64,000 nucleotides of DNA from positions 7,876,001 through 7,940,000 of the forward strand of contig NC_087250.1 of assembly GCF_037042905.1 (NCBI RefSeq), in the 5' to 3' direction. Under the pieces are notes generated by a model, which saw only the letters and a program-made list of their open reading frames with translations, was not told the DNA's origin and did no database searches. The stretch comes from Lytechinus pictus (Eukaryota). Positions 11,433 through 53,222 of the stretch are shown here, one piece after another (the stretch's first letter is position 1; each line of letters starts with the position of its first letter). A program made the position numbers and the translations under genes.

Positions 11433-12491
11433 GACTAAGTGGATTTAAAGGGTAGAGGAGTCAAATAAATGGATGACATGTATAATAAATGAATTAACAA
11501 AAATGAAAATATTGACTAATGGAATTTATGAGTTAGAGAGAACATCAGCAAACAGAGTATAGTTATACCCTTTTTCCTTTCTCCCTGAAAAAAAAAATGT
11601 ATTATACAAAAGATCAATACTTCTCTCCAGATCTAGAGTTAGATTTCAAATGAAAATCTTATAGACTGAAACTAACCTTAAAACATTCGGCTTCATGGTC
11701 AAAATAGACACAGCTTGCCCTTTTTCTTAGCTGCATGTTTAAATTATTGGTATTATATTGACTAAAGAGAAATATTCTGATCCAGGGGCGAATTCAAGAT
11801 GGGGGGTTGTTCTATGACAAGCCATGGGACACAGGTCACCACCATAAGAAGCATTTGATTTTTTTAAGTCATTAAATGGGGAGGGGCACGAAATGTGGGG
11901 TTTTGCCACCCCCCTCCCTATTCCGCGCATGGTAATATACTGCCTGATTTTGATCGTATTGGTGGTAAGTAAACTAGCTAAGGTTTGAGTACTGAATAGA
12001 GAATATCCATCGACAACAGGTGGTGATCTGAAATATGAATTTAACTGCGCTGTTCTGGATATGCCTATTGTCATTATAGCACGTTTTATCCATTCATAAA
12101 GAAAGTGTTCACACTGCCCGCCTGATGAAAAATCTTACTCCGTGTGTCACACATGCACCATTCTACAAGTGTTCAATCTGGGTGATAGAAACATTGTCCG
12201 TGTGAACAATTCTATTCGAATATCGATTCGCATTTTTTGTTCTTTTTTGTGTGAAACGAAAGCCCTTCTAGTATGTAAATGATCTCAACATGTGTCTAAT
12301 TCTGTGTTGTTTCAGTATGAAGATTTCTTTTCATACTTGTATCTTGAACACCTTATGAGGAATAAGGATCAAAGTGACAATATTTCATCGAGAAGATTAG
12401 GATTATTCGCAGTAGAGGGCATATATTCCTTTGTAAAGACTAGACTGTGTCCACTTTGATTTGGAGGAGATCTGTTCAAGGTGTTATCACG

Positions 12492-14480
12492 ATGGCATTT
12501 TTAAACCGCTCCACTCGGAAGACCCTGGCCAAAGCTATCAGTGTAGGAATAGCCATCGCTCTCGTCATCATCCTAATAGAAACACTTGAAAGCCGCCAGG
12601 AGACTTTTTCGAGTGTCCAAGGTCCTGGAGGAATGAAAGGGGACTTCTTGCATGCAATGACCTGGATACAAGCTCCAAATAAATTACGAGTTGACAAAGC
12701 GAAGAGTTTCAGCTACAGGGGAAGGCACTGGAAGTACCTGTCGGAAGCTCTTGTAGATCTGCTGGGCTTTTCTAGTAAATGCCAGGAAGTTGGTCCTGAT
12801 GACAGGAAAGATGTTCGTCGTTCTGTGAGCGTGGTAATCATTCTACATTCTTCCCCATCTCAGAGGGCACTCAGAGGTAAAATACGGGAGACATGGGCGA
12901 ACCCTGAGGAACGCCAGAAACTCGGTGTCCTTGTGCAGTTTGTCATGGGTGGACCAGAAAGTCAGAGCGAAGAAAAGCTGCTCCAAGAAGAGTCGGATGC
13001 CCATGGGGATATCTTGGTTGGGAATTTCACCGATACTGTCCGAGCAACGACCTTGAAATCTCTGCTGGGGCTTCGATGGACTTTTGCGTTTTGTTCTCGA
13101 ATCAAGTACATCATCGAGGCAAGAGACAATACCTTCATATGGCTGGAAAAACTGCCGAAGGTTCTGCAGATCTTCAAAAGGGAAAAACATCCTCAATTTA
13201 TTCTCGGGGCTCGATCGAACACCTCCAGGGTGGACCATAACTCCCCGAGTGAATTCTACGTCGGAAGTGCCGTTTTAAATCGAGAATACTACCCACCTTA
13301 CTGCTCTTTGCAAGCTGGCATTGTCATTCCTTTTGATCTGGCTATGAGCTATTACAAATACACTTGGTCAACGCCGTCACTGGTTCCATTTGCCGACGCC
13401 TTGATAGGTCTGACTGCAGAAGAGTATGGCTGGGAAGTCAGACAGAGCAACGCTTTCTCTCTTAAACATATTGAACCCAACGACGCTTGTCCAATAAGTT
13501 CACACTTCACCGCAATCTCTCCCAGCTTTTACCATATCCCCAAAATATGGGAAGAACTGAAAGACAAGACGTTCATGAAGGAATGTGAGGACCCCGACAT
13601 GGACATCATCTACGCTGGAAAATCAGCAAACAATGCCAAGTATTTTGAAACGGTGTTGACAACTGTGAAGCAAAGTTCTGACGTCACTTGCACTGATCCG
13701 GATGTGTTCATGCTGGTTCTCATCGCATCCCATCCAGCCCGCAAGACCTCCAGAGATGCCATCCGACAAACCTGGGCCAACAAGGGATTCTTGAGTTCTC
13801 TCTCAAGGAAGGTCAAAGTGTTGTTTCTCATCGGACAACCCTACCCACCCGATCCTGCACTGAGATTATCTCTAGACGAGGAGCACGGGCAGGACGGCGA
13901 TCTCCTGGAAGGGAATTTCTTGGATACCTTCAAGAACCTGACCTTAAAACATATGTTTGGTTTAACCTGGACAGCTAAACACTGCAACAATGCAAAATAC
14001 TTCCTCAAGGGTGATGACGACGTATTCGCCAACCTCAGAAACATCTTGCACCTTCTGCAGGAAATGAACAGCCATGGCAAAGGTCTTCAAGAACTCTACC
14101 TCGGAGACGGCGGAAGGGAATACCGCAACAAAAATCAGGATAAGAAGTACCATGTAGCGTCTGAGGAATACAATGGCAGGGTCTTCCCTCAGTATTGCGT
14201 TGGCGGGGGCTACATCCTCTCCATAGACCTTATAGATCGTCTTCTCAAGGAGTCGCTGCGGACACCGTTGGTGTCCTCAAGGGATGATGTATTCGTTGGT
14301 ATCCTCCTGAGGAGATTAGATGTGCCTTTGATTTACAATGATGGCTTTCACTACAGAATGGGTCCGACCGATACATGTTCCCTCAGGAACAAAGAATTCA
14401 TGGTGATGCATGTCCACGATGACGTCGAGAAACTAGTGAAGATTTGGTTAAACTTCGTTAATCCAAACGCAGTTTGCTGA
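12492..14480 (+). CDS. Beta-1,3-galactosyltransferase/GlcNAc-transferase family (GT31) protein with two tandem Galactosyl_T domains; single coding exon, 662 aa
   Basis: First ATG at 12492; N-terminal TM segment ISVGIAIALVIILI; motifs R.AIRQTW, EE...GDLL.GNF.DTF.NLTLK, LKGDDDVF, FPQYCVGGGY, DDVFVG in domain 2 and parallel motifs in domain 1; candidate acceptor at 12313-12315 suggests a 5'UTR intron. Confidence 0.93.
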   Translation: MAFLNRSTRKTLAKAISVGIAIALVIILIETLESRQETFSSVQGPGGMKGDFLHAMTWIQAPNKLRVDKAKSFSYRGRHWKYLSEALVDLLGFSSKCQEVGPDDRKDVRRSVSVVIILHSSPSQRALRGKIRETWANPEERQKLGVLVQFVMGGPESQSEEKLLQEESDAHGDILVGNFTDTVRATTLKSLLGLRWTFAFCSRIKYIIEARDNTFIWLEKLPKVLQIFKREKHPQFILGARSNTSRVDHNSPSEFYVGSAVLNREYYPPYCSLQAGIVIPFDLAMSYYKYTWSTPSLVPFADALIGLTAEEYGWEVRQSNAFSLKHIEPNDACPISSHFTAISPSFYHIPKIWEELKDKTFMKECEDPDMDIIYAGKSANNAKYFETVLTTVKQSSDVTCTDPDVFMLVLIASHPARKTSRDAIRQTWANKGFLSSLSRKVKVLFLIGQPYPPDPALRLSLDEEHGQDGDLLEGNFLDTFKNLTLKHMFGLTWTAKHCNNAKYFLKGDDDVFANLRNILHLLQEMNSHGKGLQELYLGDGGREYRNKNQDKKYHVASEEYNGRVFPQYCVGGGYILSIDLIDRLLKESLRTPLVSSRDDVFVGILLRRLDVPLIYNDGFHYRMGPTDTCSLRNKEFMVMHVHDDVEKLVKIWLNFVNPNAVC

Positions 14481-21590: not shown

Positions 21591-22337
21591 TAACTGGTTA
21601 TTATATACGAAAATGGTGAGTGGACGAAATATGGCCATTAGACCATGCGGACAGAGGCGTCGATCCTGGGGGGGGGGGGGCAGGGGGGGGCGATCGCCCC
21701 ACCAATGAAAATATTGGGGGGGGGGGGCAAACATATCGTTTTGCCCCCCAATAATTCCGGATGTGCAAAAATAAAATAAGATTGTAATGTTCAGCAAGCG
21801 AGATTGAGATACACAAATCGTGCTCAAAATGTCCGCTTTCCAGATTGGAATATACAAAATTTTAACTCGCGCTTTGCGCTCGCATCATTTCTATAGCAAA
21901 AAGCCATACTTTTCATGATTAAATAGGTGAGTATAATGTCCTGTTTTAAGTTCTAAACCTCCAAAGAACTACCGCTTCGATTTTCAATAATATACATCTT
22001 GTTTTTATCAAACGGCCATTAAACTGTCATTTTTTCAGATCGAAATATCAAAATTTTCAGCTCACGCTTCGCGCTCGCATCTATTGTTCTTTTAGATACC
22101 AATCTTAATCATTGGTACTAAAAATGCTTACAATATATCAAGCTTTCAGGTCAGAATATAAAGAAATTTCAGCTCGCTCTAGGCACTCGCATTATCTGTT
22201 TAGTAAGATATGTATCCTCCTCATGGGTCACTACAAACAGTCCTGCTTTTCCTGTTTTAAGGTCAGTATACTAAAAAATTTCAGCTCGCGCTTCGCGCTC
22301 GCATTATTTTGTTGGTGAGATACGTGTCTGTAGGGAG

Positions 22338-22368
<31 letters not shown>

Positions 22369-22375
<7 letters not shown>

Positions 22376-25300
22376 TGACCTGTCGAAATCAGACAGAATT
22401 CGCTCGATACCGTATTGAGAAAATGAGTAAAATGTTAAAAATCTTCAAAAATGTCGAATTTTTTTTTTCCATTTTAGGGATGTTTATATTTCAAGTATAC
22501 TCTGTCAAAAAATCAATCGAAAATGATAACGGGAAAGTGTCGAAAAAGCTGTTTTTCTGCGAGTGTTTTTTTTTCGGTCAGTTCGAACTTTTCTGACACT
22601 CCGCTCGTTCAGCAAGCTCAAATCTTCGCGCTGTACTAAGCTCCGCCCCTAGCAACGTACGCTATTGTTGATTGGCTGGCTATTCATAGTGGGATTTAGC
22701 TGAAATCGATGAGCTCGCTGAAGCCATTTAAACTCGCGTTTTAATCAGACATTGTCATTCCGCTCGTGCTTACATAACAACACAATACAGCTTTCGATCG
22801 CGTCATCATTACTCTCAGTATCAATCAAGTGTTTTATTACGACTTTGCCGAAATCAGTTCTTACGTTCGATTCTTTGAAAAGCGATGCTTTTGATCTATC
22901 TTTTTGAAGCGCGGGCGGGGAGGTTGTAATACAACTGGGAAGGGCGGGGGCGGGGGCGGGGGCGGGGGCGGGGGCGTGGGCGATGAGCTCGATCATTGGG
23001 TCTCAATAAAAGCCAAGGACAAAACGTATTCAAAACACGGTTTGTAAGTGAGGATTAATTTCATTGAATTACAAAGGATATGCTGAGTTGAGAAAATCTT
23101 TTATTTAATCTTAGGCCCATTATCAGGATTTTTTCATTAAGCGGTAAACTTGAGATGGCATTTTCAAAAGAATGTTTCTCAAATTCTTTAAAATATTGAT
23201 CGTCAGTGAATGCGTGTTGATTTATAAAGTTCAACAGAACGAAAGAGATCAAATCTATCATTTTCCCCTCACTATGTTGGTTCACTGTGTATTCCCATGT
23301 CTTTTTTTGCATGGTTCTCTCCGTTGGCCATTGTCATAGGTATTTATTTCACATGGAATTCATTATAACTATTGTTATCCGAGGGGTCTATGATCCAGCT
23401 TCTAAGTGGACCTCTCCATTTCTAGCGAAATATTATTAATTCACCATAGTTTTTTTTTTATTGCAATGAGTTTTTATCAATTTTGGTTTCACATTTATAA
23501 ATGTAACTGAAAATATATAAATATAACTGAAAGGTAGATTGCATGTATTCTACTTTGCATTATTGTCATGATACTTCTATGAAATTTGTATTTTTTGGGA
23601 AATGAGAAAAAAAATAAAAACTGAACTGAACTAAAACTGTAGCGGGAATAATCATAATCACTTATTCAAGATAGGGAAAGCGGGATCTGGAAATGTATAC
23701 TGTTTACCGTACACTTTGTGAACTGATAGGATTAGAATCATATCAAACCCTTTATGATTCAAACCTCTCGCCGTCAAATTTTCTCATGTCGTTTGAAGAA
23801 ACAATAGCATTAGCGAAATGTTAACAAAGATACCAACAAATCCAATAGAGAGATGAAACAAGAAAAAATATTGATTGCTTAATCAATCACAATCACCCGA
23901 CGATAATCGTGATTCAGGGTAACTACAATGATAATAATAGTATAATACTAACGAAGATAATAATAATGATAATACAAAATTTTGCTATTAGATTTGTACT
24001 TGAAATTTCCATCTGTTTATGTTCAGGATTTGTATTTTTCATTATGTTTGTATTTTGTTTTGTTTCATGTTATACAGGGCCCCCAAGTACAACAGTATTT
24101 GACTACTGATGGGGTTACCCTGTATAAATAATACCAAATAACTAAATAAATAAATAAATAAAATAACAATTATAATTACAGGGATGATGGTGATGATAAT
24201 CGTCAAAATGATAATTATGATAATTAAAAGAAAATCAATAATTAAATATAAAAATCAAATTGAGCTTGTACTGCCTTTTCCGTATCTCAACAGTTATGGC
24301 TATCAAAATAAAATAATTCTAATCAATAGGAATCATAAACTACTAGGCTTAATCTTAGTGTTTTCTTGCTATAGGCCTATAGCTATAGGCATAATAACGT
24401 TCTCTGATGGGTGAGAAGAAACATGGCATTAATACTGAATCTTGGTTGTGGTTTAACGTTATTGTGATAGAAAATAATAATAAAAAACAAAACAAGCATG
24501 TTCGAGTTAGCATCTGTGTCTGGCTTTGGTAGGCCTATTCATGACGAAATGCTAACAACGCAATCATTACAAAAATAAATAAAAAAAAACTGTTACGATT
24601 CCTATTTTTTTACTTTTGATGGTGCAAGCATATATAGGCCTTTACGTAGAAAAAAAAGACAGATTTGATAATGAACAATGAAGATAGTCCAGGGTGTAGC
24701 GATGGGGGTGGGGATGCTCCCGGCCTGCGCCAGGTGCAAAGTTTTTGTAAAATACTTCAAAAGGCTTAGGTTCTTTTCTTCTTCTAATTATAAAAGCTAG
24801 ATTAGGGTAAAGAAAGGAAGCATCCCCCTCGCCTTCCCGCCCGCGCTTCAAATAGATCAAAGGCATCGCTTTTAGTGTTCTCAAAAGCATGTTTTTAAGA
24901 AAAGTTTACAAAGAGGATGCGAATTCTAAAGGCGTAGGTGTGGCGATAATGGCACTGGGCCGGGCGGGGGCGTGGGCGATGGATAATGAGCTCGCGTATA
25001 ATCGCGAAATAAGAGCCAAGGGCAAAACGTATTCAAAACACGGTTTTGAGGATTAATTTCCTTAGAATTACAAAGGATACTATCAAGGAGACAATGATAA
25101 CAGGTACTTTCTCTATCATAGGCCATGATCAGAATCTTTTCATTATTTAAAACATTTTTTTTCCCGGAGATGGCATTTTCAAAAGAATTAAAGATTTTCA
25201 AATTTTTAGAAAATATTGATAGTCCGATCCGTGAACGTGTGCTAATCTATTAGTTTAAAAGAATAAATAAAGAAACTAAATCGAACGTCAAAGTTTGCGC

Positions 25301-26973
25301 TATCCAAGTGAAGCCCCTTTCACAATAGTGAATTATGTAAGAAAAAGAAAGAAATTGATGGCCTAATTCATCACCATCAATAATCATGATAATTGAAAAA
25401 AATAACATGGAAATAACAATGACAGTAATACTAACGATAATAACAGTAATCATAGATATAAAATAAAAATGATAATGATGATAGGCCTGTAATGGTAAAA
25501 ATGTTGATTATGAATGATGATTTTTCTAAAAATAATAGGAGCTTGATCTATTATCCGTATCTCAATAGTACTGGCTATTAAAATGAAATAATGACTAATA
25601 AGCTTAATCTTAATTTGTCATAGGCATGATAGCGTTCTTTGATGGTTGATAAAAAACATGGCATCAATACTGAATCTTGCTTGTGGTTTAATAAAAAAGT
25701 TATGATATAAAATTATAATAAAAAACAAACAATTATGTTCGAGTTAGCATCTGTGTCTGGCTTAAGTAGGCCTTCATGACGAAATACAAACAACACAATC
25801 AGAAACCAATCTGTCCAGATTCCTATTATTACTTTTGATGGTGCAAGCATAGGCCTTTACGTAGAAAAAAGACAGATTTGATAATGAACAATGAACGCGA
25901 AATAACCAAGGACAAGACGTATTAAAAAAACTGTCGTATGTGACGATTAATTAATTTCATTGAAATTATCAAGGATATGCAGAATTAAGAAAGTTTCTTT
26001 TAATCATGATTACGATTTTTTTATCAGCGTTTTTAACATTTTCAAAAGAAAGATTTTCAAATCCTTAAAAGCGGGGTCTATGAGTTGGGGGATGTTAGAC
26101 TTCTTGCATGATTTTAAGAAACACATCTGTGAAAATATCCTTCATGGAATTAATGGAAGAAAAATAAAGCGGAATAAAAACAAAGACGGCGTGTGCCTCT
26201 GTGTGTTGGTTTTTACGGTGGTATAAACACAGTTCGCTTTACTCATTTTACCCCGGCATTTTACGTTTTAAACTCTTCTCATAAAGGTGATGAAAGTTCT
26301 TAAGATGCCACGAAATTGATAATAACTTCAAAAAAGAAGGAAGAGATGAAGGAGAAGAAAAATGAGGAGATTAAACTCCCGGATTAGACTCATGGTAGTA
26401 TAGGGCCGATACAGGCGCTGGTATAGACTCAAAAATGTTTAGTCCGCATTCAACATGGACGCCACGCACAATCGCGCCTGAAAGCACGATGTGACAATAG
26501 ACAGAGAACAATACCAGACACGGCAAAAGGCACGCAAAATGCCTCACGGTCCAATAAAATAGCTTGTGTTTCTCTCTAAAAAAAACGTATAATTAATGGT
26601 TGAAACGATTACAAAAACTTATTTTCTTTGAGGAGAGATCTCAAGGATTCAGGAAAACCCAATTTTATTGTAAATCATTGACAGTTGCTAAGCACTTTCA
26701 TTCAATGAAAGGATGACTTTCCGCGTGAAACATGTGAAAAAGGCTCCGAGAAGTCTGAAAGCGGGCGAAACTTCAGAAGCGATTTTCTCGTAAAAATACT
26801 TTTTATAAACTCTCGTACCTGGGACATTTAAAGACTATTTTCTCAGCAAATACTATGTCCCTTAGCATGTGCTATATACCAAATTAAAGCTTGAGAAATG
26901 GAGAATCATAATCTTAGAAAAAATTATGTTTCAAAAAATCGAATTCTGTCTGCTTTTGACAGGACGTGTCACA
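22369..26973. mobile_element. 4.6-kb TGTGAC...GTCACA TIR element inserted in a (TA)n tract; no transposase ORF seen
   Basis: tgtgacttgacctgtcgaaatcagacagaattcg vs cgaattctgtctgcttttgacaggacgtgtcaca; TA repeats on both sides; internal direct duplications. Confidence 0.8.
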
Positions 26974-27079
26974 TATATATATTGTAAAGAAATGGATGAA
27001 GAGAACAATGGTAGGCGTAGCTTAAATCAAGGTTCCCCAGAGCTATCTACCCTTTGGAAAAATTGGTGATGCCGAAAAA

Positions 27080-27151
27080 TGTCTCTGCCGGGAATCGAAC
27101 CTGGGCCCCCAGCTTTGAACGCCGGTGCCTTAACCACTAGACCACAGAGAC
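27080..27151 (-). tRNA. tRNA-like gene or pseudogene, anticodon TCA, in left arm
   Basis: GTCTCTG/CAGAGAC acceptor stem, GTCT/AGGC D-stem, CCGGC-GTTCAAA-GCTGG anticodon arm, T-arm with one mismatch, followed by T5. Confidence 0.55.
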
Positions 27152-27249
27152 GGGTTAGTGGCTAGGGCGACCCCGATCCGATTGACCGTCAGATAGACAA
27201 ATTTTCGACACTATACCAATTATAATTTCCTTTGTCGGGTGAAGGTCAA

Positions 27250-27680
27250 GGTCAATTTTCACTTTCTTTTCTAGGTAGCAATTTCTGGAATAAAGTACCA
27301 GTCGAAATCAAATTGAAGAAATCAAGAAAAAGTTTTAGGAATTCTCTAAAAAGTTATTTGTCTTCATAAATTCACGCCATCAACGTGTAAGTCTACAGTA
27401 AATAATTAATACAATTAAGATACTTCAAAAAATGTTGATGATAACCCATTACAAGGAATATATTGTAATTTAGATTTTTGTTTTGTTTTGTTTTTCCTTC
27501 TTAAATGTGCATTTTGTAATATTTGTAGGGCCAGGCTCGATTAGCACTTGTGCTATTTTCTGGTCCCATTTACCATTGTATTTTTATACATGTGTAACTG
27601 TTATGCAATTTGTTTTATAACCTGTAAACATGTGAATATTGTTGGTAAATAAATAAATCAAATCAAATCAAATCAAATCA
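27250..27680 (+). mobile_element. 3' end of a LINE (CR1/L2-like) inserted in the foldback spacer
   Basis: FWNKVPVEIK...RKSFRNSLKSYL* coding tail, AT-rich UTR, aataaa then (aaatc)n tail; aagg on both sides. Confidence 0.6.
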
Positions 27681-27733
27681 AGGTGGGTTTCGAACAATGA
27701 CAATCGGATCGGGGTCGCCCTAGCCACTAACCC

Positions 27734-27805
27734 GTCTCTGTGGTCTAGTGGTTAAGGCACCGGCGTTCAAAGCTGGGGGCCCGGGTTCGATTCCCGTCAG
27801 AGACA
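27734..27805 (+). tRNA. tRNA-like gene or pseudogene, anticodon TCA, in right arm
   Basis: 72-nt cloverleaf, A-box tggtctagtgg, B-box ggttcgattcc, followed by T6. Confidence 0.55.
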
Positions 27806-27950
27806 TTTTTTCGGCATCACCAATTTTTCCAAAGGGTAGATAGCTCTGGGGAACCTTGATTTAAGCTACGCCTACCATTGTTCTCTTCATCCATTTCTTT
27901 ACAATATTTAAATAAAATAGTTGCCAAAGCTGTTGTACATGTATAACTTT

Positions 27951-27984
<34 letters not shown>

Positions 27985-28320
27985 GACATATATATATATA
28001 TGCCTATGTGTGTGTGTGGGTGGGTGGGTGTTTTTTGTGATCGAGCCCTTTGGAACGCTGATTCATGATTTTGCCCCCCCAATCTGAAAAATGGATCGAC
28101 GCCCCTGCATGCGGATAGTTGATGATGGTAGACGTAGACCAAATGATAGTAGACGAGTTGGTCATTGGACGACTTGGTATTAGACCAATTGGAAATAAAC
28201 CCTTGTATTCGCTGCATCACGAGAGTATGATAATAATCAATACATTTTTTAATTGTTTGATTCCAATGATTTTGAAATATGTGGTTATCACTTTGATCAT
28301 AAACCGATGAAAGGGTATCA

Positions 28321-41565: not shown

Positions 41566-42409
41566 ATGAAGAAACACGAGCGTCACTGCTTTCTTTCTGG
41601 TGTCTGCCCAGATGAACACTGCCAATCCAAACTGTACTTCCCATCATATGATCGCACCGTAGAGTGTACCAGCTGCGGACAAATACATGAATGCCGTTCC
41701 TTACGATCCGTTGCGGAAGTCACCGACCCAGATGTTGTTCTCCACAACATGGTGCGGAACCTTCTGATGGGCAACTTCGCGCCGAAGAAGACAACCGATT
41801 CCATCAAGGTCCTGGGTCTGTCCAACTACCACTGCAAGCTTCTGAGCCCTCTGCTGACGAACTTTGGCATGGACAAACAAGGCAAGGCCCAGCCGTTGGA
41901 GAGCTTGACGCAGAGCAACGTCTTCAACTGTTCCAACCTGGGCGGCCGTGCCTTTCTGATCCAACCGGAGCACATTGACATCATGGGGTACGGGCGGGAC
42001 CAGACCGGAAGCGCTCACTACCTTTGCAACACTTTGGAACAGATCAAACAAGTCAACGGAGACGAGGAAGTCCTGATACCGATACATGCCGATGGGGATG
42101 GACATTGTCTCGTCCACGGTATCTCCAGGGCTCTCGTTGGTCGTGAACTCTTCTGGCACGCCTTGAGAACAAACCTCAAGAATCACTTTGAAGAGAACTT
42201 GGACCGTTACAAGAACATGTTCAAGGATTTTGTGGATAATAGCGAATGGCCCCAGATTATAGCTGAGAGTGACCCAGACTATCTACCGGGGCCCAATGAG
42301 GCCATGGGGCTCCAGAATATTCATATCTTTGGTCTTGCTAACATCCTTCGAAGACCTATCGTCCTTCTTGACTCGCTCAGTGGACTAGAAAGCTTTGGTG
42401 ATTATTCAG
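41566..42409 (+). CDS. VCPIP1: VCPIP1 coding exon 1 (Cys-rich N-terminus and OTU catalytic Cys)
   Basis: ATG at 41566; donor cag|gtaatt, phase 1. Confidence 0.95.
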
Positions 42410-45400
42410 GTAATTGGTTTATCCTATATTTTTCTTCTTTTTGATCCTTGATTGTTGAATAGGTTGATTCTTAGTACTTCGCACAGCACCATATAATAAA
42501 ACTGGTCTTGGGATTTGAATTTTTTTGGTAAACATTATGTATTTGAGCTAAGGAAGGCAATCTAAACTATGCTTACAACACCGACACCAGCTATAACACC
42601 TAACTTGAAACCACTCAATGTAAGGTGTTTGTTTTCATAGCAATCTGAATTATACCTCCAACACCAATACCATCTCTAACACCAAACTTGATATCACTCA
42701 ATGTAAGGTGTTTTACTAACACCAGCACTAATACCAGACTTGTTATCACTGAGCATTTGTTGTTTGCTTTTATTCTGCTGTAGGAGTGTTTCTCCCTGTC
42801 TTAGATGCACTTGCTGAATACAGTGGAAGGATAATGTAAGGTGTTTGTTTTCATACCAGTGTATGAGTGTTTCTCCCTTGTTAAATACACCTGTAAAAGG
42901 ATAGTGACCTCGGTGTAAGGTGTGTTATTATCCGGTGTAGGAGTGTTTCTTTCTGTCTTAAATACACCTGGTGAATACAGCGTAAAGTATGATACATGTA
43001 CATGTAAACTCAATTTAAGGTGTTTGCTTTTATCCGGTGTAGGAGTATTTCTCCCTGTGTTAAATACACCGGCTGAATGCAGTGGAAAGGACGGTAAACT
43101 CAACAAACCTCTTTGTGTCGCTTGGAGCAGCTCTGGAAGAAACCACTTCATAGCCCTTGTAGGGGTCAAAGGTAAGTACAGGACCATGTTAAATAAAGCT
43201 AAGCGATTGATCCTAGAGATCATTTCTACGACTGATCAATTCAATACAATTCAATTCATTTATTTTTTCCATTAAAAAACATCAAAATATGTACAGTTGA
43301 AATACACATACTTATATACAAAAAAATAGATCAAATACATAAGCATAGCAAATTAATATTGTAAGTAAGAGAAATAAATGGAAAATGGAACACCTGTAGA
43401 AAGCTTTTTTTTAAAAGCTGGTCATTGGCAGGAGTCCAAAAGTTAACAAAATACAAATATAATAATAATATTAGATGGCACATGTATTTGAATTCAACGT
43501 CTTGCCCCCCTGTCCCAAACCCCTTTCCCATCTCTCTCTCTGGTAGAATTTTAAAATTAATATAGGCTAAAATTTGAATTGAAATGAAATTAATATGTCA
43601 AATAACAAATAAACTTTAAATTTTTTTTTGAAAGTACACATACACAATAGTCAATGTAAATCGATAATACAAATCAACCACCTGATCAATCGCTAAGTGT
43701 ACTTATTAGGCCCAGTAATGCCAACCTCTGAAACCCTAGCAATGAAATAAAAAGAGAAAATTAAGAAAAAAGTGTAACACTGAAAATTTCATCAAAATCA
43801 GAGGTAAGAAAAGAAAGTTGTGACATTTTAGATTTAAGCTTGATTTCACAAAACAGTTAAATGCACATTCTTCTCTGTCTGCAAATGAGGGAATTGATGA
43901 TGTTACCCACTCACTCTTTCTTCATTGCAAGTTTCTATTTAATCTAAATTATGATATGAAACTGGGGAAAAGCCATTAATGTGACATGTTGATATATCAG
44001 GCAAGGTTGTTTGAGCATGTTCTGAGTCTCTTGTTGCTTCACATCACCAACTTCGAATTCCGTTGCTAAAAATCAAGCTAAATATTAGGACGCACTTAAA
44101 TTATAAGTTGCAGTTCACAACTCAATGCAATACTCCAACTCCCTCATTCCTGCACGATACTTGACCTTTCCCCTTTGATTCCCATCAGGTCGTCCGTTGC
44201 CACGGTTACCAAGGTGGATGCTCTCGAAAGCCTGGGGGACGTCGCAAGAAGAGGTCAATAGATACATTGAGTTTGATGGCGATGGCATGTGCACCGTAGG
44301 GGGAGACAGGGCACTTACCGTAAGTGTTTAGTCATAACGACCAACTTTAAAATCTCTTCGAGCGTTTCACAATACATTTGTTGCAGTTCAAATAAATTTA
44401 GCTCTGTCCCTTTTATCGTTTACCTCTATTACACGGGCATTGCAGGTCTTAAATATGCAATATGAAAATAAAATCAAAATCCATATTTTATTGTTCGAAA
44501 TAGAAATATTTCGAAAATTAATTTTTTCCATGTTATCCTGGGCCCGGCAGCCAATGCACAGGGCCAGATCGACGTAGCTCTATCCCTTTATTCGTTGAAC
44601 GTAAAACAGGGTAGCAGCAGCTCCCATCTTTTAACATCTTTTGGTCTGATGTGGCTGGGGCATGAACTCTAACTCTCTCGGTTTTGAGACGGATGCTCTA
44701 CAAACTGAGCTAACACACCAGTTCTCATGATGTTTGAGAATAATAAAAATAATAACGTTTTATTTACCCAGGGTAGCCACTTCAGTTAGGACACTGCTCT
44801 ACCAGCGGGCCCTGCATAACATAAGATGTTATTATTACCCTTCTCCAATCTAAATGCTGAGCGCCTAGCAAGAAGGCAGAAGGTCCCATTTGTATAAGTC
44901 TTTGGTATGACTCGGCCGAGGATCGAACCCACAACCTCCCGTTCATGAGGCGGACGCTCTACCACTGAGCCACCTTAGTGGGTCAACATTTTTGTGCTGA
45001 AGTGATTATTGGATCCATGTTGAATTTAAATGTGGCGCGTTTTTCTAGTTTTTGGCATGTCGCAAATAATCCCCCCAACATGATGGAATGAACAGAACAT
45101 GAAAGAGCACTTCTGATTGGTTCCTGGTCCGTGTTCTGAACAAAATGCACATGTATCACTGCTCTTGATTGGCCGGCACCATTCAGAGATAGATTACTAA
45201 CCTTTGTTCTACAGAGCGCAAGTGGCTACTCCAAAGCCTGCTCTGTCATCACAGCTGCCAAGGATCTTATCCTATTTATTCGGATTTTTAAGGGGGGATT
45301 AACACTAAATAGAATTTTTCCTGTAGAAGGATTGTTGAAATTTGTAAGAATGATGTTTGGTATGTTTTTTAAGATTTTAGGCTTGAAAATAGGGTAGGAA

Positions 45401-51400: not shown

Positions 51401-53222
51401 TGTGTATTGATTATGTTCTTTTGTCGATAGTTATCGATATGGTTCAGATATTTTTAGCATGATTTCGACAGAGAATTTTCTCAACGATAACAGCCCTAGT
51501 TGGAACAGAATTGTTTATGGTGACTGAAATTTTTTTCCTCATTGAAGCCGGTACCAAATGATATGTCTGATTATGTAATAAATGCTCAAATGAAATCATT
51601 CTCAAGTTTCTCAAAAGCACTGTATTACCAATAAGAGAGCTGATTGCACCTGACGTCACAAAACCAAAACTTAAAAAAACTGTATCTGTGTTAATGTTAA
51701 GTTGATTTTAGCCAAATTTTCACTGCTATGTTATATTTTTCTGCTTTTATTAAAACCAACTTCCCAAGGGGGTTAACTTCCCATTTTAGGTCTGACGTTT
51801 CCGAGCGCACAGCATCCGTCTTAGAATTTTTAAGCAGAATCTATAAAAATGCCTGGGTTGCTTGACCAGATATTCTATGTGTATCATATAACTATGCCTT
51901 ATCTTTTTTTTTTGCTGAGAAATGAGCAAGATAAGCATGATTTTCAAAAAATGCCCGGTATTTTTCCACGCAATATTAATACACTGTCCCACATATGCCT
52001 TTTTGTGCTAGTTATCATCAGAATATCAGTTTTCAGCTAAGATTTCATATTTCATGAAGGTAAGCTGATGTCAATGTATTAGATCTATATCTATGATAAT
52101 ATGGTGTTAATTGACCTTGATTTTAAAGGCTTTTTCATGAAATAATTGTTTGCTGCAACTAATTTCTTTTACCTTTAACTCAAAATTGATTCCCCACAGA
52201 CTGCAAGCAGGGAGGCAGCCTACCAACCACCCTCACTGTCTGATATGCCTCGCCCGAGTACATCATCAACGGTAAAACCAGAGGAAGCTTCAAGTAGCTC
52301 TACTGAAAAGCCAGGTAACAATACTTCACTATAGAGTAGTACGGTTTTAAAGGAAACCAAATCCCAAGAAGAGAATCAATCTTATTATTGATAATAATAA
52401 TAGCTGGATTTATAAAGAGCGTTTTGCCTGAGGATACAAAGCGCTGCTATTGTTACCCCTGCTTTAGCTTGAGCTACCATCAACGGCGCTCAGTGCATGC
52501 AAGGAATTACTCCTGCGGGTACCCATTCACCTCACCTGGGTCGAGTGCAGCACAGTGTGGATAAATTTCTTGCTGAAGGAAAACACGCCGTGGCTGGGAT
52601 TCGAACCCACTACCCTCTGTTTCAAAGGCGAGAGTCAGAACCACTAGACCACGACGCACCCACAATATTAGAAAGAGTAAAATGAGAGGAACAATTTAAA
52701 ACAAGTTTCATCAAAATCGGTTTTGAAATAAGCAAGTTATGGACGTTTAGAAAGTCTTTGATTTGCTTTCTTTGTGGATTCTCATATTGGCAAACATCCT
52801 TCAGAATGACAGATATTGTGGTCAACTCTCCATTTGTTTTGTACACAATTTTTCAGATTTTCCCCTTTATCTTTCAAATTGCATCTTGCCTCCTTCTGAG
52901 CATAACATATATGTCATGGGAAAACATCATTTACATGGTGGTAATGATGATAATCATTGATATGAGGCTCTTACGTAACATTCCTCCCAACAGAAGGTGT
53001 GGAGAGTTTACCAATCGAAGGGAGAGACTCGCCGAGGAAGCAATTGGGGATGAAAAACAAGGAAGCATCTGTTGCAAGCTCTTCATCCATGAATTCACCA
53101 TCTAAGATTATCCTCTCCGGTGGGGTAAGTTCAATCCATTCATATTTTACTTTCATTAGTAGTAGTTTTAATAATAATATGATGATGATGATGATGATGA
53201 TGATAATAATAATAATAATTCA

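What the first reader, a model, noticed from the sequence alone, without database searches (positions are those of the whole stretch)
26983..27903. Foldback transposon whose inverted arms each carry a tRNA cloverleaf with a UCA (opal-reading) anticodon and a Pol III terminator
Seen: two ~202-bp arms (26983-27184, 27701-27903) are near-perfect reverse complements with TGT...ACA ends and ATAT on both sides. Each arm holds a 72-nt sequence folding as GTCTCTG-TG-GTCT(AGTGGTTA)AGGC-A-CCGGC(GTTCAAA)GCTGG-GGGC-CCGGG(TTCGATT)CCCGG-CAGAGAC-A (consensus of the two copies), followed directly by T5/T6. Each copy has a different single T-stem mismatch, and both point outward. Established: SINE heads usually lose the acceptor stem and read on into a body, and tRNA-Sec has a long variable arm; this sequence does neither. 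TGT ends with a 4-bp TSD are typical of Ginger-type elements. Inference: a DNA element carrying Pol III tRNA-like cassettes in its TIRs, which could act as TFIIIC insulators, small-RNA sources or UGA suppressors. G at position 32 is non-canonical, which argues against efficient decoding.
Basis: partly seen in the sequence, partly recalled or inferred. Interest (0 to 1): 0.8.

Follow-up and report, generated by a model that had tools for sequence, protein, structure and literature searches.

The report
Inverted tRNA-bearing repeats in a microsatellite
Two head-to-head copies of an abundant 403-base repeat that carries a tRNA look-alike sit inside a TA microsatellite; the arrangement is a recurrent by-product of how this repeat spreads, not a discrete foldback transposon or a working stop-codon suppressor.

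Summary
The sequence facts hold. There are two ~200-bp arms that are 98% complementary. Each carries a 72-nt cloverleaf (Rfam tRNA 55 and 53 bits, anticodon TCA) followed by T5 or T6, and both tRNAs point outward. The transposon reading does not hold.

- **Not an element of its own.** The arms are two truncated copies of a 403-bp monomer family. An exact 40-mer from the tRNA part occurs 1,630 times in this 811-Mb animal genome, mostly in short tandem arrays.
- **No real termini.** Homology runs past the "TGT" end. The "ATAT" flanks are a (TA)n microsatellite on the left and family sequence on the right.
- **The loop is mostly foreign.** 434 of its 516 bp are a nested, unrelated high-copy retroposon.
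- **Family architecture.** Arrays lie inside (TA)n. One end is constant, with a (CA)n(TA)n tail. The other end is variable.
- **Pairs recur.** 14 of 15 loci with both strands show the window's outward-pointing geometry, usually one arm with the long end and one starting at an internal AATATT site.
- **The monomer is itself an old foldback.**

Best mechanism (about 45%): retroposition into (TA)n with twin priming. DNA-templated break repair, a rolling-circle element and a Helenus-type TRIM are rivals.

The tRNA part shows no compensatory changes and little extra conservation. It is probably a relic Pol III head, not an opal suppressor.

The parts
21899..22360 (+). 'Y' half of the host repeat (Y-(TA)n(TG)n-X) whose internal microsatellite received the insertions
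   Evidence: 83% identical to the Y part of an empty paralogue (L067 1-490). The same Y lies beside the family in L054, L056 and L059.
22370..26972 (.). Context: unrelated ~4.6-kb non-coding element with terminal inverted repeats, also lodged in the (TA)n
   Evidence: Inverted arms 22360-22402 and 26940-26982, 43 nt including the (TA) flank, 88% complementary. No ORF of 120 aa or more.
26967..26982 (.).
   Evidence: Nine of nine short-end arms at other loci start the same way, as (TA)n followed by TATTGT(GT)GAAAG.
26983..27246 (-). Left arm, part 1: family monomer positions q56-q314, antisense on the + strand. It starts at the family's 'short end'.
   Evidence: BLAST to the family consensus: 26973-27246 matches sense positions 90-361 at 95%.
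27080..27151 (-). tRNA-like cloverleaf, anticodon TCA, followed by T5 (27075-27079 on the + strand)
   Evidence: ARAGORN; Rfam tRNA 55.4 bits.
27247..27680 (+). Nested insertion of an unrelated dispersed repeat with an (AAATC)n tail. AAGGT stands on both sides.
   Evidence: 171 candidate places in the genome; 40 scored gave 41 matches, most spanning positions 1 to about 420-434 at 79-98%. Other family copies join q314 directly to q310-333.
27681..27703 (-). Left arm, part 2 (q310-q333), ending at the junction with the right arm
   Evidence: The junction overlap is CAA.
27701..27955 (+). Right arm: family monomer sense positions 152-403, truncated at its inner (5') end and complete to the family's 'long end'
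   Evidence: 95% to the consensus. At 27701, contigs from other copies continue with the family leader (loose ends).
27734..27805 (+). tRNA-like cloverleaf, anticodon TCA, followed by T6 (27806-27811)
   Evidence: ARAGORN; Rfam tRNA 53.3 bits. The T at 27797 is a private change.
27956..28015 (.). Compound (CA)n(TA)n...(TG)n microsatellite: the family's tail plus the host repeat's own microsatellite
28016..28118 (+). 'X' end of the host repeat
   Evidence: 2,285 candidate places; 39 of the 40 scored matches cover only about the first 90-101 bases of the query. Empty paralogues L067 and L068 read Y-(TA)n(TG)n-X.

Best explanation
**What is shown.** The window holds one locus of a high-copy family whose unit is a 403-bp monomer. 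In tRNA-sense order the monomer is a 184-nt leader, a 72-nt tRNA-like cloverleaf with anticodon UCA, a T6 run, and a ~140-nt trailer ending ...CTTCACACA.

Copies lie inside (TA)n microsatellites as arrays of 1.1 to about 44 monomers. The 3' (trailer) end is constant and runs into (CA)n(TA)n. The 5' end is cut at variable places and abuts (TA)n.

Here two such copies lie 5'-to-5', with their tails outward, inside the (TA)n of another repeat (Y-(TA)n-X). The right arm has the full tail. The left arm starts at an internal AATATT site 50 nt from the tail. A foreign 434-bp retroposon later landed in the left arm.

**What is inferred, at about 45%.** The family spreads through RNA by target-primed reverse transcription at nicked (TA)n. 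Because (TA)n is its own complement, the second nicked strand can also prime, on the AAUAUU site of the same RNA (twin priming). That gives an inverted, 5'-joined pair. The monomer itself is a fossil of such an event.

**The tRNA-like part.** It is most likely the relic Pol III head of the ancestral element. It is not a decoding suppressor tRNA.
For: **Family size and unit**
- The monomer query gave 1,540 first-look candidates; the 40 scored gave 185 matches, with a period of about 403.
- The exact 40-mer running from the anticodon arm to the T-loop occurs 1,028 + 602 times; the reversed control occurs 0 times.

**Ends of the arrays**
- All 15 solo arrays examined start at q1 behind a (TA)n or (TA)n(TG)n run.
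- 12 of those 15 end at a variable monomer position followed at once, or after a few stray bases, by (TA)n.
- 10 of 14 independent variable ends fall in the trailer just 3' of the tRNA (q39-137; binomial p = 3e-4).

**Filled versus empty paralogues**
- L067 and L068 read Y-(TA)n(TG)n-X.
- L054, L056 and L059 carry the family in that microsatellite between Y and X. The window does too, but there the 4.6-kb TIR element also lies between Y and the family. L062 and L066 carry it beside X; Y was not seen in what I hold of them.
- In all six the sense strand points toward X (p = 0.03).

**Recurrent pairs**
- 14 of 15 held loci with both strands have the tRNAs pointing outward. A conservative count of 12 of 13 gives p = 0.003.
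- Among the first 100 places of the exact 40-mer, 6 of 6 opposite-strand neighbours within 1.5 kb point outward.
- 9 of 9 short-end arms begin (TA)n followed by TATTGT(GT)GAAAG, and 8 of those 9 are partnered by a long-end arm.
- In 11 of 12 junctions the ambiguous or overlapping stretch is 2-8 nt; in one it is 32 nt.
- Arms are 100% identical at C2:60606602 (402 nt) and at C9 (308 nt), and over 147 nt in L066.

**The monomer is an old foldback**
- Leader positions s26-175 align to the reverse complement of s223-354 with a score of 52. Three hundred shuffles gave 23 +/- 4, with a maximum of 37.
- The monomer RNA folds as a rod at -143.5 kcal/mol, z = -7.8.

**The tRNA part**
- Divergence from consensus is 2.0% in the tRNA against 2.8-4.6% in the flanking segments; the 40 bp just beside it are at 1.9-2.1%.
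- All 24 variant sequences carry one-sided changes; none is compensatory.

**Literature and RNA libraries**
- LINE and SINE tails are often microsatellite-like, (AT)n included, and pair with the target (passages of PMC6007223).
- Contigs in one RNA-labelled library bridge the tRNA 5' border and the T6 run. This shows presence in the library only.
Against: - No reverse-transcriptase partner with the same tail was found.
- TSDs cannot be read inside (TA)n.
- T-runs (T6 after the tRNA, T4 at the monomer border) would stop Pol III, so a multi-monomer RNA needs read-through or Pol II.
- The tRNA sits in the middle of the present monomer, not at its 5' end.
- L038/L040 and L056 share the same 'variable' end (q105) at unrelated sites. 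That also fits copying of a whole (TA)n-to-(TA)n DNA segment.
- The window's two arms (98.1% identical) are no closer to each other than to copies elsewhere: the background mean is 98.0%, and 64% of comparisons reach the arms' value. A single event is therefore not shown for this locus.
- The loci studied are the best-scoring hits of one query, not a random sample.
Confidence: 0.55

Rival explanations
1. DNA-level spread. Breaks in fragile (TA)n tracts are repaired by copying from another (TA)n-flanked locus, by synthesis-dependent annealing, break-induced replication, template switching or re-insertion of excised circles. Both (TA)n ends can anneal to the donor's TA-rich sites, which gives constant starts, variable stops and inverted pairs.
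For: - The anatomy is the same as in the best explanation.
- Both outer ends sit at TA-rich microhomologies: GTATAC at the monomer border and AATATT at q50.
- The same q105 end recurs at unrelated sites, L038/L040 and L056.
- Short fold-back pieces of 15-51 bp lie at array ends in L055, L062 and L006.
- Dispersed short satellite-like arrays with abrupt junctions are described in molluscs (passages of PMC5139131).
Against: A double-stranded donor should often give long/long pairs or whole-segment copies. Instead, 8 of 9 short-end arms pair with a long-end arm, as if one single-stranded template were used. The clustering of stops just 3' of the tRNA fits a polymerase stalling on a folded single strand.
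Confidence: 0.25
2. A non-autonomous rolling-circle element (Helitron, or a Helentron/HINE-like element). Such elements have a conserved 3' end, variable 5' ends, no TSD, insertion at A/T sites and tandem multimers from read-through.
For: - The end pattern is constant 3' and variable 5', and arrays are flanked by TA.
- A near-palindrome, GTTGTACATGTATAAC, lies about 12 nt before the 3' end (read from the consensus).
- The family sits between a repeat block, a microsatellite and a ~100-bp conserved flank (X) in 6 loci. This recalls the left flank-microsatellite-tandem repeats-right flank layout of oyster HINEs (passages of PMC7492417) and of DTC84 (abstract of PMC3879986).
Against: - There is no 5' TC or 3' CTRR.
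- No conserved right flank follows the arrays. Among the 36 held family loci, five have X and the other 31 do not; L066 was fetched through X.
- No subterminal inverted repeats were found.
- HINEs insert at TT, not TA.
- Inverted 5'-joined pairs are not a known rolling-circle product (recalled).
Confidence: 0.1
3. A Helenus-type TRIM: a tiny LTR retrotransposon whose TG...CA LTRs carry a tRNA-like Pol III unit and which makes 4-bp TSDs in animals. On this reading the monomer is LTR plus internal part, and the arrays are (LTR-internal)n.
For: - Helenus LTRs read TGT - short leader - tRNA-like - T-run - ...ACA. Full elements in bivalves are 353-421 bp with 4-bp TSDs, and tRNA-Sup calls in fungi all come from Helenus (PMC10886601: abstract, first part of section 3, supplement part 1 and searches).
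- The window's left arm is bounded by TGT...ACA.
- A CA|TGGCGGCTTGTC motif in the monomer resembles an LTR end followed by a PBS (read from the consensus).
Against: - Array ends never coincide with TG...CA boundaries.
- The sequence next to ...CTTTACA is ATATTTAAAT, which is not a TGG-type PBS. No polypurine tract abuts the next TGT.
- Array lengths are n + 0.1 to 0.9 monomers, not a fixed LTR remainder.
- The motifs GTTCAAAGCTGG, TGGTCTAGTGGTTA and GTCTCTGTGG are absent from the Helenus consensus file. Its lines wrap at 70 letters, so a motif that crosses a line end would be missed.
Confidence: 0.04
4. One reading: a discrete foldback DNA transposon, Ginger-like, with TGT/ACA TIR ends and a 4-bp ATAT TSD, whose TIRs carry the tRNA cassettes.
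For: The literal ends and flanks are in the sequence. Inverted pairs recur in the family.
Against: - Homology passes both supposed ends.
- Inner junctions differ at every locus.
- Most copies are solo or tandem.
- The loop is a foreign insertion.
- The two outer ends are unequal, one long and one short.
Confidence: 0.03
5. The cloverleaves are working genes: an expressed, charged opal-suppressor tRNA family.
For: - The cloverleaf is perfect in 36 of 68 monomers.
- The T-loop reads GGTTCGATTCC, and the D-arm and T-arm residues look canonical (my reading).
- A T-run terminator follows.
- There are about 1,630 exact copies of the core.
Against: - G at position 32 is non-canonical, and it is ancestral to the family: it is present even in copies that are only 77-79% identical.
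- There are no compensatory changes and no marked extra conservation.
- More than a thousand active suppressor genes should be harmful (inference).
- The long galactosyltransferase ORF 13 kb upstream ends in TGA.
- Suppressor-type predictions inside mobile elements are judged non-functional in PMC10886601.
Confidence: 0.03

Closest known systems
tRNA-derived SINEs mobilised by LINEs with microsatellite-like 3' tails
   Same: A tRNA-like unit with Pol III boxes, a non-coding body and a microsatellite tail that matches the target. The 3' end is intact and 5' ends are truncated. PMC6007223 (passages) lists (AT)n among such tails and discusses tail-target pairing.
   Different: - The tRNA lies in the middle of the present unit and is followed at once by T6.
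- The unit is tandemly repeated.
- Insertions sit inside long (TA)n tracts.
- No partner LINE was identified.
Twin priming (5' inversion) of LINE-1 insertions
   Same: Two copies of one template joined 5'-to-5' with a few bases of overlap. One is primed at the tail and the other at an internal site.
   Different: - Here it is frequent: 14 of 15 loci that hold both strands.
- It uses one fixed internal site (AATATT).
- I attribute it to the self-complementary (TA)n target.
- The process is recalled from the literature and was not tested here.
Helenus (TRIMp3) non-autonomous LTR retrotransposons, PMC10886601
   Same: A tRNA-like Pol III unit plus a T-run inside a TGT...ACA-bounded repeat. Helenus is abundant in pteriomorph bivalves, and its suppressor-type tRNA predictions come from the element.
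   Different: No LTR-PBS-PPT-LTR anatomy. Array ends are not at TG/CA. TSDs are unreadable. There is no sequence match to the published consensus file by three motifs.
Tandem-repeat-carrying MITEs and HINEs of bivalves (pearl, DTC84, Cg_HINE)
   Same: Short satellite-like arrays dispersed through the genome and linked to a microsatellite at one array end. In 6 loci the family lies between a repeat block and a conserved ~100-bp flank.
   Different: No conserved right flank, subterminal inverted repeats or 3' palindrome module at most loci. The target is TA, not TT. The monomer is 403 bp and carries a tRNA-like gene.
Foldback (FB-type) transposons
   Same: Long inverted arms built of tandem repeats, with variable middles.
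   Different: The outer ends are unequal and lie in a microsatellite. Most family members are not inverted. No shared terminal sequence defines an element. The comparison is from recall.
tRNA-Sec and natural opal suppressors
   Same: Anticodon UCA.
   Different: 72 nt with a 4-nt variable loop and a 7/5 acceptor/T-stem. There is no long variable arm. G32.

Membership tests
Foldback / Ginger-type DNA transposon | Terminal inverted repeats whose outer ends are the ends of homology in all copies | tested here: not met
   Homology continues about 50 bp past TGT in the right arm and in L002, L003, L006 and L011. The outer ends of pairs are unequal.
Foldback / Ginger-type DNA transposon | Target-site duplication of fixed length | tested here: not met
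   The left 'ATAT' is part of an (AT)n run. The right 'ATAT' is conserved family sequence.
Foldback / Ginger-type DNA transposon | Autonomous partner with integrase or transposase | not tested
   No protein search was run for a partner. There is no ORF of 120 aa or more in 22370-28118.
tRNA-derived SINE (LINE-dependent) | tRNA-related region with A and B boxes | tested here: met
   Rfam tRNA 53-61 bits. The T-loop reads GGTTCGATTCC. The box consensus is recalled.
tRNA-derived SINE (LINE-dependent) | tRNA head at the 5' end of the unit | tested here: not met
   A 184-nt leader precedes the tRNA in the present monomer. That leader is a decayed inverted copy of the tRNA 3' half plus trailer, so the ancestral unit may have started at the tRNA.
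tRNA-derived SINE (LINE-dependent) | Constant 3' end with tail, and 5' truncation | tested here: met
   15 of 15 solo arrays have the constant end. Variable ends fall at 12 different positions among 14 independent arrays.
tRNA-derived SINE (LINE-dependent) | Partner LINE sharing the 3' tail; TSDs | not testable with these tools
TSDs are hidden inside (TA)n.
Helenus TRIM (PMC10886601) | Two TG...CA LTRs flanking a PBS and a PPT | tested here: not met
   There is no TGG-type PBS next to ...CTTTACA and no purine tract before TGTCATTG (consensus). Array ends are not at LTR borders.
Helenus TRIM (PMC10886601) | 4-bp TSD in animals | tested here: inconclusive
   The flanks are (TA)n at 12 of 15 variable ends and at 15 of 15 constant ends.
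Helentron-derived HINE | 5' and 3' subterminal inverted repeats, a 3' palindrome module, a microsatellite in the left flank, insertion at TT | tested here: not met
   No conserved flank follows the arrays. X is present at only five of the 36 held family loci; L066 was fetched through X. The targets are TA. The features are taken from passages of PMC7492417. I did not search X itself for subterminal inverted repeats.
Self-cleaving retrozyme or hammerhead satellite | Hammerhead ribozyme in each monomer | tested here: not met
   An Rfam E-value scan of two monomers found only tRNA and low-complexity matches.
tRNA-Sec | About 90 nt, long variable arm, 9/4 or 8/5 acceptor/T helices | tested here: not met
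   72 nt with a 4-nt variable loop. It aligns end to end with the general tRNA model.
Functional suppressor tRNA | Purifying selection on the stems (compensatory changes); expression and charging | tested here: not met
   None of the 24 variants is compensatory. Divergence is 2.0% against 1.9-2.1% in the adjoining 40 bp. Expression and charging are not testable here.

The most novel reading that the evidence does not exclude
A microsatellite-homing, tRNA-headed retroposon for which fold-backs are a built-in product. Because its (TA)n target is self-complementary, both nicked strands prime on one RNA, at the tail and at an internal AAUAUU. One such fold-back then became the 403-bp higher-order unit that now amplifies in tandem. 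As a side effect the genome carries more than 1,000 intact Pol III tRNA-like units with a UCA anticodon. These could bind TFIIIC or Pol III or yield small RNAs, even if they do not decode.
Probability: 0.4. Interest if true: 0.6.

Novelty: new variant of a known kind. Interest (0 to 1): 0.4.

Why it matters
- **tRNA annotation.** About 1,600 'suppressor/SeC' tRNA calls in this genome are repeat-borne. They should be masked before tRNA gene sets or genetic-code inferences are made.
- **A testable mechanism.** A palindromic microsatellite target may turn ordinary insertion into systematic fold-back formation, and a fold-back can seed a new tandem repeat. This bears on how dispersed satellite-like arrays and microsatellite-associated repeat families arise in marine invertebrate genomes. 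It also explains why (TA)n tracts here act as insertion nests: this one holds at least three different elements.
- **Possible chromatin effect.** If the units bind TFIIIC or Pol III, they would form a large, young set of potential boundary sites.

Tried and rejected
- **Parent tRNA not identified.** A search with the 73-nt tRNA found only family copies (9 of 9). The 18 best-scoring tRNA places that I fetched, out of 49 listed, were 17 tRNA-Lys and one with no ARAGORN call. The four Lys genes compared with the cloverleaf matched at only 42-48 of 75-76 aligned columns.
- **Are the window's arms each other's closest relatives?** Inconclusive. They are 98.1% identical against a background of 98.0%.
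- **Hammerhead or other RNA families in the monomer:** none.
- **TRIM models in both orientations:** rejected on termini. These included an 80-bp LTR model with a PBS-like TGGTAGGCG; only 1 of 14 independent array ends falls at q80.
- **Sequencing runs.** The stretch's words are held by 20 of 24 listed runs from 11 studies, under three coded organism labels plus 'marine metagenome'.
- **Contigs laid from four runs.**
  - One RNA-labelled run (X19) has 3 contigs. Presence in an RNA library does not show transcription.
  - Cover is lacking at 27640-27694. The apparent drop in depth left of 27732 is at least partly clipping of leader variants (see the loose ends).
  - The very high summed depth in X17, and its 6 contigs that run into poly(A) after 27917, stay unexplained.
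- **First searches undercounted.** The arm gave 12 candidates because very common words are skipped.
- **Earlier notes of this scan:** none found.
- **Literature.**
  - No held paper combines 'tRNA-like', 'satellite DNA' and 'bivalve'. I do not know that the organism is a bivalve.
  - I did not see the supplements of PMC7492417, PMC3879986 or PMC6007223; they may hold element sequences relevant to X/Y.
- **Organism:** not determined.
Full report
**1. The observation**

The region reads as described.
- The repeat finder gives two blocks of inverted repeat: 27075-27184 with 27701-27810 (110 nt, 98%) and 26973-27079 with 27807-27913 (107 nt, 98%). They are split only by a one-base difference in the T-run.
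- ARAGORN calls tRNAs with anticodon tca at 27080-27151 (-) and 27734-27805 (+).
- Rfam's tRNA model scores 55.4 and 53.3 bits against a gathering score of 29. Each copy has one non-pairing T-stem position, and the positions differ between copies.
- T5 and T6 follow directly, and both tRNAs point outward.

**2. It is a family member, not an element of its own**

The window lies in an 811-Mb, 368-contig genome. Nearby are a galactosyltransferase ORF and a VCIP135/OTU exon, so this is an animal.

The first search with one arm found only 12 places, because very common words are skipped. Those places already showed three things:
- Other copies are solo or tandem rather than inverted.
- Homology runs beyond both supposed ends. 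The sequence ...CAACAGCTTTGGCAACTCTTTTATTTAAATAT precedes TGT in the right arm and in L002, L003, L006 and L011. ...AGCCGCCATGCCTCAGCTGGATCAAAGC follows the inner ...CAATGACA in L002, L003, L006 and L008.
- The unit is about 403 bp and is repeated in tandem.

A query with a full unit gave 1,540 first-look candidates. The 40 that were scored gave 185 matches, including an array of about 21 units on C4. An exact 40-mer from the anticodon arm to the T-loop occurs 1,028 + 602 times, and the reversed control occurs 0 times. One array of about 44 units lies on C2.

**3. The loop**

Window 27247-27680 is a different repeat. It has 171 candidates; the 40 scored gave 41 matches, most covering positions 1 to about 420-434 at 79-98%. 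It ends in (AAATC)n and AAGGT stands on both sides. Other family copies join the two flanks directly. Before this insertion the arms were only 82 bp apart, and those 82 bp are simply the continuation of the left copy.

**4. Anatomy of the family**

I call the antisense consensus coordinates q1-403 and the tRNA-sense coordinates s1-403.

Solo arrays (15 examined):
- All 15 begin at q1 behind (TA)n or (TA)n(TG)n.
- 12 of the 15 end at a variable position followed at once, or after a few stray bases, by (TA)n.
- In tRNA-sense terms, the 3' end (...CTTCACACA, then TTTA(TA)n or (CA)n(TA)n) is constant and the 5' end is truncated.
- 10 of 14 independent 5' ends lie in the 99 positions just 3' of the tRNA (p = 3e-4).

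**5. Filled and empty sites**

The ~100 bp to the right of the window's microsatellite (28016-28118, 'X') is itself a repeat with 2,285 candidates.

| Locus | State | What the microsatellite holds |
|---|---|---|
| L067, L068 | empty | Y-(TA)n(TG)n-X, nothing inserted |
| L054 | filled | an inverted pair, between Y and X |
| L056 | filled | a 2.24-unit array, between Y and X |
| L059 | filled | a 1.2-unit array, between Y and X |
| L062, L066 | filled | the family beside X; Y was not seen in what I hold |
| Window | filled | the pair, with Y (21899-22360) separated from it by a 4.6-kb element with inverted ends (22370-26972) that also sits in the (TA)n |

In all six filled loci the sense strand points toward X (p = 0.03). 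The events may not be fully independent.

**6. Inverted pairs are a regular product**
- Of the 15 held loci with hits on both strands, 14 have the window's geometry and one is the reverse. A conservative count of 12 of 13 gives p = 0.003.
- Among the first 100 listed places of the exact 40-mer, 6 of 6 opposite-strand neighbours within 1.5 kb point outward.
- The pairs are asymmetric. Nine arms start at a 'short end', (TA)n followed by TATTGT(GT)GAAAG, that is, at the internal AATATT about 50 nt from the tail. Eight of those nine face an arm with the full tail. The window is one of them.
- Inner junctions differ at every locus. In 11 of 12 the ambiguous or overlapping stretch is 2-8 nt; in one it is 32 nt.
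- Some pairs are very young: 100% identity over 402 nt, 308 nt and 147 nt.
- The window's arms (98.1%) are no closer to each other than to other copies, so their joint origin is inferred from the pattern and is not shown.

**7. The monomer is an old fold-back**
- Its RNA folds into a rod (-143.5 kcal/mol, z = -7.8).
- The leader (s26-175) aligns to the reverse complement of s223-354, which is the tRNA 3' half, the T-run and the trailer. The score is 52 against 23 +/- 4 for 300 shuffles, with a maximum of 37.
- The old inverted arm starts at the same short end, and the full tRNA begins 9 nt after its inner end.
- This suggests a primordial unit of tRNA, body and tail (about 220 nt). That unit once formed a pair and was then amplified as a 403-bp unit. 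This step is inference.

**8. Mechanism**

A constant tailed 3' end, 5' truncation, 5'-joined inversions and microhomology junctions together are the signature of target-primed reverse transcription with twin priming (recalled). Microsatellite tails that pair with the target, (AT)n among them, are documented (passages of PMC6007223). A self-complementary (TA)n target would let both nicked strands prime, and the long/short asymmetry fits two primers on one single-stranded template.

Several points count against this:
- No partner LINE was found.
- TSDs are unreadable.
- T-runs should stop Pol III.
- The same q105 end recurs at unrelated sites.

DNA-templated repair at fragile (TA)n reproduces most of the anatomy and remains a serious rival. 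Rolling-circle, Helenus TRIM and foldback-transposon readings fail specific membership tests.

**9. The tRNA-like part**
- The consensus is a perfect cloverleaf, present in 36 of 68 monomers. TCA is kept in 67 of 68.
- G32 is ancestral to the family.
- All 24 variant sequences carry one-sided changes.
- Divergence from consensus is 2.0% in the tRNA, against 1.9-2.1% in the adjoining 40 bp and 2.8-4.6% elsewhere.
- There is therefore no sign of selection on the fold beyond the youth of the copies.
- Contigs of one RNA-labelled library bridge the tRNA 5' border and the T6 run. If these are RNA, they are read-through rather than a processed tRNA.

**10. Verdict**

The discrete-transposon and suppressor ideas are not supported. 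What remains interesting is a (TA)n-homing, tandemly amplifying, tRNA-bearing repeat that makes fold-backs systematically.

Noticed in passing
window 27247-27680: Nested copy of a separate high-copy dispersed repeat (171 or more candidate places), about 430 bp, with an (AAATC)n tail and AAGGT on both sides. It has no tRNA head.
   Followed up: partly
window 21899-22360 and 28016-28118; L067, L068: A composite repeat, Y-(TA)n(TG)n-X. Y is about 490 bp with internal sub-repeats of about 110-120 bp. X is about 100 bp with 2,285 candidate places. Its internal microsatellite acts as an insertion nest.
   Followed up: partly
window 22370-26972: A ~4.6-kb element with 33-bp terminal inverted repeats (GTGACTTGACC... 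and its complement), flanked by (TA)n on both sides. It has no ORF of 120 aa or more and contains internal repeats.
   Followed up: partly
window 28321 to about 28760: A minisatellite of 15-bp units (GGACAAYTACCCCCC)n.
   Followed up: no
G000 C4:9,700,000-9,736,000 (L071-L083): A dense cluster of dozens of tRNA-Lys (TTT, one CTT) genes spaced about 0.5-1.4 kb apart. The first-look count of tRNA-like candidates in the genome is about 73,000.
   Followed up: partly
window 52570-52652: A weak tRNA-like remnant, 67% identical to the family's tRNA region.
   Followed up: no
window 27917 (run X17): Six contigs of a run of unknown type continue with poly(A) right after ...TTTAAATAAAA. The summed contig depth in that run (up to about 300,000) is far above what the genomic copy number predicts. 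Unexplained.
   Followed up: no
L059 (G000 C15:31212516-31215996), between the family tail and X: A run of 24 T (sense strand) followed by AACTT lies inside the microsatellite next to the family's tail. It may be a tiny separate insertion.
   Followed up: no
window 12447-14480 and 41566-42444: An intronless 677-aa galactosyltransferase ORF (Pfam Galactosyl_T, 200 bits) and a VCIP135 N-terminal/OTU exon flank the intergenic region that holds the finding.
   Followed up: no
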